From: a virus
Taxonomy: Duplodnaviria; Heunggongvirae; Uroviricota; Caudoviricetes
Reading direction: 5' to 3' (one strand)
Length of the DNA stretch: 4,258 nucleotides
IMG/VR virus record: IMGVR_UViG_2706794694_000006
Made by a program: the position numbers and the translations under genes. This document shows, in pieces, positions 258 through 4,258 of the stretch (positions are counted from its first letter, which is position 1; every line of letters begins with the position of its first letter). Below the pieces are notes generated by a model. The model had not been told where the DNA came from, made no database searches, and saw only the letters and a program-made list of their open reading frames with translations.

Positions 258-668
258 TTAGTGCGGAAATATTTGTGTAGTGTTCTGTATGTTCTCAGTA
301 AAGAGTAATGAATTATCAAAGGTATAGTAATACCTTTTGTTTTCGTGGATATTTGTAATCCATCTGAAAACCCCTGCTGTAGCAAGATTTTTCCTGTATT
401 CGTAAAATGATAACTCTCCTGATTTGAATCCTTTTAAGGTGGCTTCTATAAGGCATTTATTTTTTGAAAATCTTACATTTACAACCTTACCCTGTCCTTT
501 TATTAAAACCGTATTATCGTTTTCAAGAACAAGATGAATATTCTCTGTGGCTAAATAGTAAATGTAATGTGAGACATTGTGACGTTTTAGTTCAGAATAA
601 AACCAGTGATAGTTTAAATTATTTCGCACTTTATCGAATATTTGTTTAAAAATGGCAACCTGAGCCAT
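258..668 (-). CDS. Hypothetical protein, 136 aa (141 aa if the upstream ATG at 681-683 is used); AT-rich, moron-like accessory gene of unknown function
   Basis: A 142-codon open frame on the minus strand in DNA of roughly 30% GC, where stop codons are frequent, so an ORF this long is unlikely by chance. The second ATG (666-668) is preceded by GGAAGG with a 7-nt spacer, a good Shine-Dalgarno; the first ATG (681-683) has none. Stop is TAA at 258-260. No transmembrane segment or recognisable catalytic motif seen by eye; rich in Tyr, Asn and Lys. Confidence 0.55.
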
Positions 669-725
669 TGTAGTACCTTCCATGTGATATGAGGGGGCGT
701 AGTCTGCACGATTATCTAAATTGCT

Positions 726-959
726 TCAATCTGGTCTAACCTGTTTTCTGAGCAATTCAGTAATGTCACTCTTTTCTTTGTTTGCTTCAGGCGAAACTCT
801 TTTTTCTGAGCACAGTCTCCGGCGGCAGGCTTCAATGACCCAGGCTGAGAAATTCCCGGACCCTTTTTGAACAAGAGCGATGTTAATTTGTTCAATCATT
901 TGGTTAGGAAAGCGGATGTTGCGGGTTGTTGTTCTGCGGGTTCTGTTCTTCGTTGACAT
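726..959 (-). CDS. Arc/Mnt-type ribbon-helix-helix (RHH) DNA-binding protein, 77 aa
   Basis: Minus-strand ORF with ATG at 957-959 and TGA at 726-728. Residues 13-47 (RNIRFPNQMIEQINIALVQKGSGNFSAWVIEACRRRL) fit the Arc/Mnt pattern of N-[IL]-R-[FW]-P beta strand, helix A, G-[RS]-x-[NS] turn and helix B (compare P22 Arc FNLRWPREVLDLVRKVAEENGRSVNSEIYQRVMESF). Basic N-terminal arm (KNRTRRTTTR). Lies 42-57 bp upstream of the 136-aa gene on the same strand. Confidence 0.65.
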   Translation of the reverse strand: MSTKNRTRRTTTRNIRFPNQMIEQINIALVQKGSGNFSAWVIEACRRRLCSEKRVSPEANKEKSDITELLRKQVRPD

Positions 960-1128: not shown

Positions 1129-1135
1129 GGGTCCT
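1129..1135 (+). other. cosQ-like element (GGGTCCT) of the lambda-type cos site
   Basis: GGGTCCT lies 23-29 bp upstream of the predicted top-strand nick, the same spacing I recall for lambda cosQ. Flanking sequence GGGTCCTTTCCGGCGATCCGACAGGTTACG resembles the lambda right end. Confidence 0.5.
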
Positions 1136-1158
1136 TTCCGGCGATCCGACAGGTTACG

Positions 1159-1170
1159 GGGCGGAAGGCG
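1159..1170 (+). other. cosN: 12-nt segment between the two terminase nick positions (cohesive-end sequence), here GGGCGGAAGGCG
   Basis: Sits between lambda-like flanks CGACAGGTTACG (right-end side, ending at 1158) and CGCGGGTTTTCGCTATTTATGA (left-end side, from 1171). The 12-mer differs from the canonical lambda overhang GGGCGGCGACCT in its right half. Nu1 start is 189 bp downstream, as in lambda. Confidence 0.7.
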
Positions 1171-1210
1171 CGCGGGTTTTCGCTATTTATGACAATTTTC
1201 CGGTTTAAGG

Positions 1211-1327
1211 CGTTTCCGTTCTTCTTCGCCGTAACCTAATGTTTTTATTTAAAACACCCCCTGAAAAGAAAGGAAACGACAGGTGCTGAAAACGGGCTTT
1301 TTGGCCTCTGTCGTTTCCTTTCTCTGT
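1211..1327 (+). promoter_or_regulatory. cosB: terminase small-subunit (Nu1) binding region with R3, IHF site I1, R2 and R1 elements
   Basis: R3 CGTTTCCGTTCTTCTT at 1211-1226; A/T-rich IHF-like segment at about 1231-1258; R2 in inverted orientation (AGAAAGGAAACGACAG, 1268-1283); R1 (CTGTCGTTTCCTTTCT, 1308-1323). R2 and R1 are a perfect 16-bp inverted repeat separated by 24 bp. Arrangement and position between cosN and Nu1 match lambda cosB. Confidence 0.75.
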
Positions 1328-1347: not shown

Positions 1348-1867
1348 ATGGAAGTCAACAAAAAGCAGCTGGCTGACATTTTCGGTGCGAGTATCCGTAC
1401 CATTCAGAACTGGCAGGAACAGGGAATGCCCGTTCTGCGAGGCGGTGGCAAGGGTAATGAGGTGCTTTATGACTCTGCCGCCGTTATAAGATGGTATGCC
1501 GAAAGGGATGCTGAAATTGAGAACGAAAAGCTGCGCCGGGAAGTTGAAGAACTGCGGCAGGCCAGCGAGACAGATCTCCAGCCAGGGACTATTGAGTACG
1601 AACGCCATCGACTTACGCGTGCGCAGGCCGACGCACAGGAGCTGAAAAATGCCAGAGACTCCGCTGAAGTGGTGGAAACCGCATTCTGTACTTTCGTGCT
1701 GTCGCGGATCGCAGGTGAAATTGCCAGTATTCTCGACGGGATCCCCCTGTCGGTGCAGCGGCGTTTTCCGGAACTGGAAAACCGACATGTTGATTTCCTG
1801 AAACGGGATATCATCAAAGCCATGAACAAAGCAGCCGCGCTGGATGAACTGATACCGGGGTTGCTGA

Positions 1868-1893
<26 letters not shown>
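1348..1893 (+). CDS. nu1: Terminase small subunit Nu1 (lambda gpNu1 family), 181 aa
   Basis: ORF-track protein MEVNKKQLADIFGASIRTIQNWQEQGMPVLRGGGKGNEV... is recognisable as lambda gpNu1, with the N-terminal winged-helix DNA-binding region and GGGKGNE nucleotide-binding segment. Same length as lambda Nu1, a few substitutions relative to my recollection. Stop TAA at 1891-1893. Confidence 0.95.

Positions 1894-4258
<2,365 letters not shown>

What the first reader, a model, noticed from the sequence alone, without database searches (positions are those of the whole stretch)
1159..1170. Variant cohesive-end sequence at cosN (GGGCGGAAGGCG) within otherwise lambda-like flanks
The sequences immediately flanking the nick region (…CGACAGGTTACG on the left, CGCGGGTTTTCGC… on the right) match what I recall of lambda, but the 12-nt stretch between the nick positions differs from the canonical lambda overhang GGGCGGCGACCT at 5 of 12 positions, all in the right half. 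cosN is the terminase nicking substrate and the overhang sequence determines end annealing, so a clustered change there with conserved flanks is unexpected. It could be a genuine cos variant or a local assembly or consensus error.
Basis: partly seen in the sequence, partly recalled or inferred. Interest (0 to 1): 0.45.

Follow-up and report, generated by a model that had tools for sequence, protein, structure and literature searches.

The report
Common alternative lambda sticky-end sequence
The odd 12-base "sticky end" in this lambda-like prophage is real, but it is a recurrent natural allele in the half of the cutting site already shown to tolerate sequence change, so it is ordinary.

Summary
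Window 1159-1170 reads GGGCGGAAGGCG. Lambda reads GGGCGGCGACCT. The five differences are at overhang positions 7, 8, 9, 10 and 12, and the flanks are identical to lambda for 16 bp on the left and 22 bp on the right.

It is not an assembly error. The same 12-mer, with at least 16 exact flanking bases, occurs at 169 places in 158 of 5,426 complete E. coli genomes. The canonical allele occurs at 8,148 places. The variant is also in 14 IMG/VR contigs, 23 PLSDB plasmids and two GenBank phage records.

All other cos parts are intact and correctly spaced: cosQ, the CG dinucleotides flanking both nick sites, R3, R2 and R1. Nu1 has 3 substitutions against lambda and gpA has 4.

No terminase residue is fixed between allele classes, and one variant-cos prophage encodes a gpA identical to that of two canonical-cos contigs.

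Feiss et al. 2015 (PMC4669245) report that bp 7-12 of cosN vary naturally (N15, phiD326, Gifsy-1). They also report that mutations there barely affect cleavage, because Nu1 bound at R3 anchors gpA for bottom-strand nicking.

Verdict: a genuine, probably functional cosN allele, and a new member of a known kind. Nick positions and the viability of this particular prophage are inferred. Interest is low.

The parts
1129..1135 (+). cosQ (GGGTCCT), the packaging-termination element
   Evidence: Exact match to lambda 48473-48479 by position. It lies 23 bp upstream of the top-strand nick, as in lambda. PMC4669245 describes cosQ as a highly conserved 7-bp site.
1157..1172 (+). cosN, 16 bp: CG + 12-bp overhang + CG. 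Inferred nicks are on the top strand between 1158 and 1159 and on the bottom strand between 1170 and 1171.
   Evidence: Aligned to the lambda end junction. The CG dinucleotides flanking both nick positions are conserved. The nick positions are inferred by homology and were not measured.
1159..1164 (+). [quoted passage not shown]
   Evidence: The literature says this half is under selection.
1165..1170 (+). [quoted passage not shown] The variant block is AAGGCG, against lambda CGACCT. Only C at overhang position 11 (window 1169) is retained.
   Evidence: These five positions are the only sites from -100 to +720 that are fixed between 14 variant and 58 canonical loci.
1208..1223 (+). cosB R3, the critical Nu1 (TerS) binding site, equivalent to lambda bp 50-65 and identical to lambda
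   Evidence: Exact match and unchanged distance from cosN. The R3 coordinates come from PMC9026076.
1267..1282 (-). cosB R2 (AGAAAGGAAACGACAG on the + strand, inverted relative to R1 and R3)
   Evidence: Exact match to the lambda R2 16-mer.
1308..1323 (+). cosB R1 (CTGTCGTTTCCTTTCT)
   Evidence: Exact match to the lambda R1 16-mer. A 1-bp deletion relative to lambda lies between R2 and R1.
1348..1893 (+). Nu1 (terminase small subunit, 181 aa)
   Evidence: 178 of 181 residues are identical to lambda Nu1. The differences are K48R, A75T and L132I, none of them within recognition-helix residues 17-24.
1868..3948 (+). A (terminase large subunit), interrupted by a run of 179 N at 2492-2670
   Evidence: The readable parts correspond to lambda gpA aa 1-208 and 217-641, with 4 substitutions: T151S, D185E, L404R and T466I.

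Best explanation
This is a functional lambda-type cohesive-end site carrying a natural alternative allele of cosN. Nu1 dimers bind R3, R2 and R1 of cosB, which is unchanged. That anchors one gpA protomer over the right half of cosN so that it nicks the bottom strand between bp 12 and 13 largely regardless of sequence. A second gpA protomer reads the conserved left half (ACG^GGGCGG) and nicks the top strand. The product would be a virion chromosome with 12-nt 5' overhangs: GGGCGGAAGGCG on the left end and its complement CGCCTTCCGCCC on the right end. Both ends come from the same allele, so they anneal normally on infection. Predicted duplex stability is -17.8 kcal/mol against -18.2 for lambda, and both overhangs have 10 of 12 G+C. 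The five changes are therefore neutral or nearly so for packaging. They behave as one discrete block that has spread by recombination among Escherichia lambdoid prophages and N15-like phage-plasmids. What is shown: the sequence, its recurrence, the intact subsites and spacing, and the absence of co-varying terminase residues. What is inferred: the nick positions, cleavage efficiency and the viability of this particular prophage.
For: (1) The allele is real and recurrent. Its exact 12-mer sits inside a megablast 28-mer word at 169 places in 158 of 5,426 complete E. coli genomes, against 8,148 canonical places in 4,283 genomes. It is also in 14 IMG/VR contigs, 23 PLSDB plasmids from E. coli, E. 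fergusonii, E. albertii and Shigella sonnei, the phage records YDC107_1 and PhiR46_1, and Escherichia sp. E1V33.

(2) Every element that the literature marks as constrained is intact: cosQ, the flanking CG dinucleotides, overhang bp 1-6, R3, R2, R1 and the cosN-R3 spacing.

(3) No amino-acid position in gpA (12 variant against 35 canonical sequences) or in Nu1 (14 against 67) is fixed between allele classes. The gpA of variant locus L143 is 100% identical to the gpA of canonical loci L055 and L120.

(4) Twelve of 14 variant loci with enough sequence have full-length Nu1 (181 aa) and A (641 aa), against roughly 35 of 60 canonical loci. One of the two exceptions is this window's own N gap. PhiR46_1 is deposited as a complete phage genome with a named host and a full virion module.

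(5) Published experiments (PMC4669245) report four things. Many mutations in bp 7-12 have minimal effect. C11G has none, while the symmetric G2C costs about 10-fold. Lambda carrying cosN-N15 yields 132 pfu per cell against 120 with cosN-lambda. The authors conclude that maintenance of bp 7-12 is not under selection.

(6) Between the allele classes only positions 7, 8, 9, 10 and 12 are fixed across -100 to +720. The closest complete-genome relative, strain TO6 at 99.2% identity over 2.4 kb, has the canonical allele. So it is a block allele in a shared background.
Against: No virion DNA ends have been determined for this allele. No phage record starts at it, so the nick positions and the 12-nt length are inferred. 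Five of six right-half positions changed is more than any case tested experimentally: N15 has two changes and Gifsy-1 three. Rotational symmetry of the 16-bp core drops from 10 to 8 bp, losing the 3:10 and 6:7 pairs. The run GGCGCGCGGG offers alternative CG steps where a nick could shift. The window is only 4.3 kb with an N gap in gene A, so the intactness of this particular prophage is unknown. I could not read the survey by Vahanian et al. 2017, so I cannot say whether this allele is already tabulated there.
Confidence: 0.85

Rival explanations
1. Local assembly or consensus error in a draft genome, so the true sequence is canonical lambda cosN.
For: The source appears to be a draft. There is a run of 179 N in gene A where only 24 nt are missing, and no complete E. 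coli genome matches the window fully (best 99.2%).
Against: The identical 12-mer occurs in 158 independently assembled complete genomes, 23 plasmids, 14 IMG/VR contigs and 2 phage records, with at least six different sequences left of cosQ. A random error would not reproduce the same five-base block.
Confidence: 0.01
2. A decayed, non-functional cos in a cryptic prophage, with mutations accumulated in the absence of selection.
For: Most E. coli lambdoid prophages are defective, and about 25 of 60 canonical loci sampled have a disrupted A gene. Whether this window's prophage is complete is unknown.
Against: Decay would scatter different substitutions over cosQ, the left half, R3 and the genes. 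Instead the same five changes are fixed in all 14 variant loci compared, the constrained elements are untouched, and terminase genes are full-length in 12 of 14 variant loci. The allele also sits on about 46-kb phage-plasmids and in deposited phage genomes with complete virion modules.
Confidence: 0.05
3. A distinct cleavage specificity: the allele needs a co-evolved gpA endonuclease, which would define a new cosN specificity group.
For: gpA T466I is enriched with the variant (11 of 12 against 8 of 35). L404R is seen only with the variant (the window plus 2 of 12 loci, against 0 of 35).
Against: Neither residue is fixed. One variant locus encodes a gpA identical to that of two canonical loci. 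Lambda TerL showed no cosN specificity between the lambda and N15 alleles.
Confidence: 0.05
4. The nick position on the bottom strand is shifted, for example by 2 nt within GCGCGCG, so the overhang is not 12 nt.
For: The variant creates repeated CG steps (GGCG|CGCGGG), and the nick-adjacent base changes from T to G.
Against: The cosN-R3 spacing that positions gpA is unchanged. N15 also has G at position 12 followed by CGC, and its record annotates a 12-base 5' extension. The literature says spacing, not the local right-half sequence, sets the nick site.
Confidence: 0.04

Closest known systems
Bacteriophage lambda cos (cosQ-cosN-cosB with Nu1/gpA terminase)
   Same: cosQ, the flanking CG dinucleotides, overhang bp 1-6 and 11, R3, R2, R1 and the spacing are the same. 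Nu1 is 178/181 identical and gpA 629/633 identical over the readable residues.
   Different: Overhang bp 7, 8, 9, 10 and 12 differ (AAGGCG against CGACCT). There is a 1-bp deletion between R2 and R1. Rotational symmetry of the 16-bp core is 8 bp instead of 10.
Phage N15 / phiD326 cosN (GGGCGGCGTCCG)
   Same: A natural right-half variant of a 12-nt 5' overhang with the left half conserved. It shares G at position 12 and C at 11. It has been shown experimentally to be cut by lambda TerL as well as cosN-lambda.
   Different: N15 differs from lambda at only 2 positions, 9 and 12. It has a simple cosB with a single R3, and its TerL is about 65% identical to lambda's. Here five positions differ while cosB and the terminase are lambda-type.
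cosN of an ~11-kb capsid-encoding satellite inserted in gene E of lambda-like prophages (GGGCGTCAGGCG)
   Same: It shares the right-half AGGCG at positions 8-12, plus cosQ and the flanking CG.
   Different: It also differs at position 6 (T) and position 7 (C). It has its own TerS-like gene. It is found behind both variant-cos and canonical-cos prophages, so it has no exclusive link to this allele.
Natural cosN variation surveyed by Vahanian, Oh, Sippy and Feiss, Virology 2017;509:140 (not readable here)
   Same: The same phenomenon. Citing papers report conserved nick-flanking bases and a conserved left part with a variable remainder, for example mEp213/LLS GGGCGGCGCGCT.
   Different: I could not check whether GGGCGGAAGGCG is listed there. 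No paper in the searchable library contains this 12-mer in a phage context.

Membership tests
Lambda-type cos site (12-nt 5' cohesive ends, sensu Feiss) | cosN left half GGGCGG and CG dinucleotides flanking both nick positions | tested here: met
   ACG|GGGCGG......|CGC at window 1156-1173 is identical to lambda apart from bp 7-10 and 12.
Lambda-type cos site (12-nt 5' cohesive ends, sensu Feiss) | 7-bp cosQ at the lambda distance upstream of cosN | tested here: met
   GGGTCCT at 1129-1135, corresponding to lambda 48473-48479.
Lambda-type cos site (12-nt 5' cohesive ends, sensu Feiss) | Complex cosB with R3, inverted R2 and R1 at lambda spacing from cosN | tested here: met
   R3 at 1208-1223 (lambda bp 50-65), R2 at 1267-1282 and R1 at 1308-1323 are exact matches. 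There is one 1-bp deletion between R2 and R1. The IHF site I1 was not scored separately.
Lambda-type cos site (12-nt 5' cohesive ends, sensu Feiss) | Adjacent Nu1 and A terminase genes of lambda packaging specificity | tested here: met
   Nu1 is 178/181 identical to lambda with no change in residues 17-24. gpA is 629/633 identical over the readable residues.
Lambda-type cos site (12-nt 5' cohesive ends, sensu Feiss) | Terminase actually nicks here to give 12-nt 5' overhangs | not testable with these tools
   This needs virion DNA end sequencing or in vitro cos cleavage. No deposited phage record begins at this overhang.
Canonical lambda cohesive end (GGGCGGCGACCT) | Identical 12-nt overhang, and therefore end-compatible with lambda, 21, 434 and phi80 | tested here: not met
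   5 of 12 positions differ.
N15-type cos | Overhang GGGCGGCGTCCG with a simple cosB (single R3-N15, rR2 inside gene 1) | tested here: not met
   The overhang differs at positions 7-10. cosB is the tripartite lambda type and the N15 right flank is unrelated.

The most novel reading that the evidence does not exclude
The five-base block defines a second cohesive-end compatibility type among Escherichia lambdoid elements. Chromosomes cut from heteroallelic concatemers (variant cos at one end, canonical at the other) would carry five clustered mismatches. Those ends would probably fail to cyclize or ligate, so the allele would act as a transient barrier to recombinants between otherwise freely exchanging phages. 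The sharp boundaries of the block at the nick sites could arise from heteroduplex formation confined to the annealed 12-nt ends, which would let a cosN allele move between genomes without its flanks. The 40-fold enrichment on N15-like phage-plasmids would then point to the lineage in which the allele arose.
Probability: 0.12. Interest if true: 0.4.

Novelty: new member of a known kind. Interest (0 to 1): 0.15.

Why it matters
It matters little for mechanism. The finding agrees with the established picture that TerS anchoring at cosB makes right-half cosN sequence nearly irrelevant to cleavage, and it extends natural tolerance from 2-3 changes to 5 of 6.

It has some practical value. About 2% of lambda-type cos sites in complete E. 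coli genomes, and about 44% of those on plasmid replicons, carry this overhang. Tools or oligonucleotides that assume GGGCGGCGACCT will miss or mis-handle them. That includes cos-end annotation, end-labelling or ligation handles, and prophage boundary callers.

The allele is also a convenient natural substrate for testing how many right-half changes lambda terminase tolerates, and how many cohesive-end mismatches cyclization tolerates.

Tried and rejected
1. Assembly error. Rejected after exact-word searches in complete E. coli genomes, plasmids, phages and IMG/VR.

2. Terminase co-evolution. Position-by-position association of gpA and Nu1 with the allele found no fixed difference and found identical gpA across alleles.

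3. Linked haplotype. DNA association over -100 to +720 found only the five cosN positions fixed. Positions 71, 97, 134 and 137 are only partly linked.

4. Stepwise intermediates. IUPAC scans of IMG/VR for other alleles with lambda flanks found only rare single-base variants: GGGCGGTGACCT twice, and GGGCGGAGACCT, GGGCGGCAACCT, GGGCGGCGACCG and GGGCGACGACCT once each. They also found the satellite allele three times. Nothing bridges canonical and variant except possibly the A7 allele.

5. Exclusive link between the variant and the capsid-gene satellite. Rejected, because the satellite also sits behind a canonical-cos prophage (L040).

6. Presence outside Escherichia and Shigella. Two scans of the GTDB species representatives gave one real hit (Escherichia sp. 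E1V33) and six chance matches in GC-rich genomes.

7. Literature. The 12-mer appears in no phage paper in the library. The source paper for the PhiR phages was not found. Vahanian et al. 2017 is not held.

8. Local inversion origin. The reverse complement of CGACCT is AGGTCG, not AAGGCG, so this was dropped.

Full report
**Observation.** The window is a lambda-type late-region and packaging junction. It contains a DUF1398 gene (258-683, minus strand), a YlcI/YnfO-family gene (726-959, minus strand), cos, Nu1 (1348-1893), A (1868-3948), W (3945-4151) and the start of B (from 4148) (annotation of a 99.2% identical relative). Window 1159-1170 reads GGGCGGAAGGCG. I fetched lambda NC_001416 rather than rely on memory. 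Its first 12 bases are GGGCGGCGACCT and its last bases are ...CCGACAGGTTACG. An ungapped alignment of 200 bp on each side shows the five differences at overhang positions 7, 8, 9, 10 and 12, and no other difference from -16 to +34.

**Not an artefact.** A 42-nt query centred on the site needs an exact 28-mer to seed megablast, and every 28-mer in that query contains the whole 12-mer. It matched 169 places in 158 of 5,426 complete E. coli genomes. The equivalent canonical lambda query matched 8,148 places in 4,283 genomes. So about 2% of lambda-type cosN sites in complete E. coli genomes carry this allele.

- It is also present in 14 IMG/VR contigs.
- It is in 23 PLSDB plasmids from E. coli, E. 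fergusonii, E. albertii and Shigella sonnei.
- It is in the GenBank phage records YDC107_1 and PhiR46_1.
- It is in one GTDB species representative, Escherichia sp. E1V33. The six other hits there are chance matches in GC-rich genomes.
- The sequence left of cosQ differs completely among at least six carriers, so these are independent contexts and not copies of one assembly.

**Anatomy.** Everything else in cos is lambda-like and in register.

- cosQ GGGTCCT lies at 1129-1135.
- The 16-bp cosN core lies at 1157-1172 and keeps the CG dinucleotides on both sides of the nick positions.
- R3 is at 1208-1223 (lambda bp 50-65), inverted R2 at 1267-1282 and R1 at 1308-1323. All three are exact matches.
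- A single 1-bp deletion lies between R2 and R1.
- Nu1 differs from lambda at 3 of 181 residues, none in recognition-helix residues 17-24.
- gpA differs at 4 of 633 readable residues.
- Predicted annealing stability of the overhang is essentially unchanged: -17.8 against -18.2 kcal/mol, with 10 of 12 G+C in both.
- Two-fold symmetry of the 16-bp core falls from 10 to 8 bp. The pairs -2:14, -1:13 and 2:11 are retained, as they are in N15 and in the satellite allele.

**Does the terminase co-vary?** From IMG/VR and fetched loci I extracted full-length gpA (12 variant, 35 canonical) and Nu1 (14 variant, 67 canonical). No position is fixed between the classes. The strongest association is gpA T466I, at 11 of 12 against 8 of 35. 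L404R occurs in the window and in 2 of 12 variant loci only. One variant prophage (L143, E. coli AR_0089) encodes a gpA identical to that of two canonical-cos contigs. At the DNA level, only positions 7, 8, 9, 10 and 12 are fixed between 14 variant and 58 canonical loci across -100 to +720. The closest complete-genome relative of the window (strain TO6, 99.2% over 2.4 kb) carries the canonical allele. The variant is therefore a discrete six-bp block sitting in shared backgrounds.

**Allele census.** I scanned IMG/VR with IUPAC patterns that fixed the lambda flanks.

| Overhang | Contigs |
|---|---|
| GGGCGGAAGGCG (this allele) | 14 |
| GGGCGTCAGGCG | 3 |
| GGGCGGTGACCT | 2 |
| GGGCGGAGACCT | 1 |
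| GGGCGGCAACCT | 1 |
| GGGCGGCGACCG | 1 |
| GGGCGACGACCT | 1 |

This allele is the commonest non-canonical one. No chain of intermediates was seen, which suggests a single origin followed by spread through recombination rather than repeated point mutation. That reading is an inference.

**Function.** Twelve of 14 variant loci with enough downstream sequence have intact 181-aa Nu1 and 641-aa gpA. One of the two exceptions is the window's own N gap. About 35 of 60 canonical loci are intact by the same measure. PhiR46_1 is deposited as a complete phage genome with a named host, a telL site, a large primase and a complete lambda-like head and tail module. These facts argue against decay in a dead prophage. 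No virion end data exist for the allele.

**What is known.** Feiss et al. 2015 (PMC4669245) make the following statements.

- Differences in bp 7-12 of cosN are common among lambda-like phages. N15 and phiD326 differ at 9 and 12, and Gifsy-1 at 8, 9 and 11.
- Many mutations in bp 7-12 have minimal phenotype. C11G has no effect, whereas the symmetric G2C lowers yield about 10-fold.
- This asymmetry reflects the proximity of the right half to cosB. TerS bound at R3 anchors TerL, so bottom-strand nicking is insensitive to sequence.
- The flanking CG dinucleotides, the left half and cosQ are conserved.
- Lambda carrying cosN-N15 yields 132 pfu per cell against 120 with cosN-lambda.
- Ends mismatched at two positions still cyclize, with about a 4-fold loss.

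I confirmed the N15 overhang GGGCGGCGTCCG directly. A dedicated survey exists (Vahanian et al. 2017, Virology 509:140; cited), but it is not held in the library. The 12-mer itself appears in no phage paper that I could search.

**Mechanism proposed.** Nu1 binds the unchanged cosB. One anchored gpA nicks the bottom strand between 1170 and 1171 irrespective of the AAGGCG sequence. A second gpA reads the conserved ACG^GGGCGG and nicks the top strand between 1158 and 1159. The resulting overhangs are self-complementary and as stable as lambda's, so the phage life cycle is unaffected. The sequence facts, recurrence, intact subsites and lack of terminase co-variation are shown. The nick positions, efficiency and viability are inferred.

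**Verdict.** The option of a genuine cos variant is supported and the assembly-error option is refuted. The premise that such a change is unexpected is not supported by the literature. This allele has more changes (5 of 6 right-half positions) than any experimentally tested case, and it is frequent enough to matter for annotation, but it fits a known and explained pattern. I file it as a new member of a known kind, with low interest.

Noticed in passing
window 2492-2670: There is a run of 179 N inside terminase gene A. The flanking frames correspond to lambda gpA aa 1-208 and 217-641, so only about 24 nt are really missing. The N run is therefore an arbitrary-length scaffold gap or mask, and it breaks the apparent reading frame.
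   Followed up: yes
L142 (E. coli APEC E14033, NZ_CP126948.1) 26556-37660; also L121, L147, L149, L040: An ~11-kb satellite is inserted in the major capsid gene E of lambda-like prophages. It carries an integrase, an Icd-like gene, a primase, SSB, its own major capsid and decoration proteins, an HTH protein, its own cosQ-cosN and, in the related copy L121, a Nu1-like TerS gene. Its cosN is a third allele, GGGCGTCAGGCG, which shares AGGCG with the window's allele. It occurs behind both variant-cos and canonical-cos prophages.
   Followed up: partly
L144 (PhiR46_1, PV340565.1) and L141 (pAH01-1, NZ_CP055252.1); counts: The variant allele is about 40-fold enriched on plasmid replicons: 16 of 169 variant places against 20 of 8,148 canonical places (Fisher p = 2e-18). 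Most carriers are about 46-kb non-mobilizable plasmids. PhiR46_1 shows a telL site and a large primase, that is an N15-like phage-plasmid, combined with a lambda-type Nu1/A and cosB.
   Followed up: partly
window 3077-3079 (gpA codon 404): gpA L404R is present in the window and in 2 of 12 other variant-cos loci but in 0 of 35 canonical loci. T466I is enriched with the variant (11 of 12 against 8 of 35). Neither is fixed, so neither is required for the allele.
   Followed up: partly
window ~1296 (between R2 1267-1282 and R1 1308-1323): There is a 1-bp deletion relative to lambda (GAAAGCGAGGCTTTTT against GAAAACGGGCTTTTT), so the Nu1 ATG lies at +190 rather than +191 from overhang base 1.
   Followed up: no
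L004 (PhiR70_1, PV340577.1) 720-731; L161: A single-substitution allele, GGGCGGAGACCT, shares A at position 7 with the window's allele. It occurs in one GenBank phage and one IMG/VR contig, and in the latter it has a non-lambda cosB. It could be an intermediate or an independent change.
   Followed up: no
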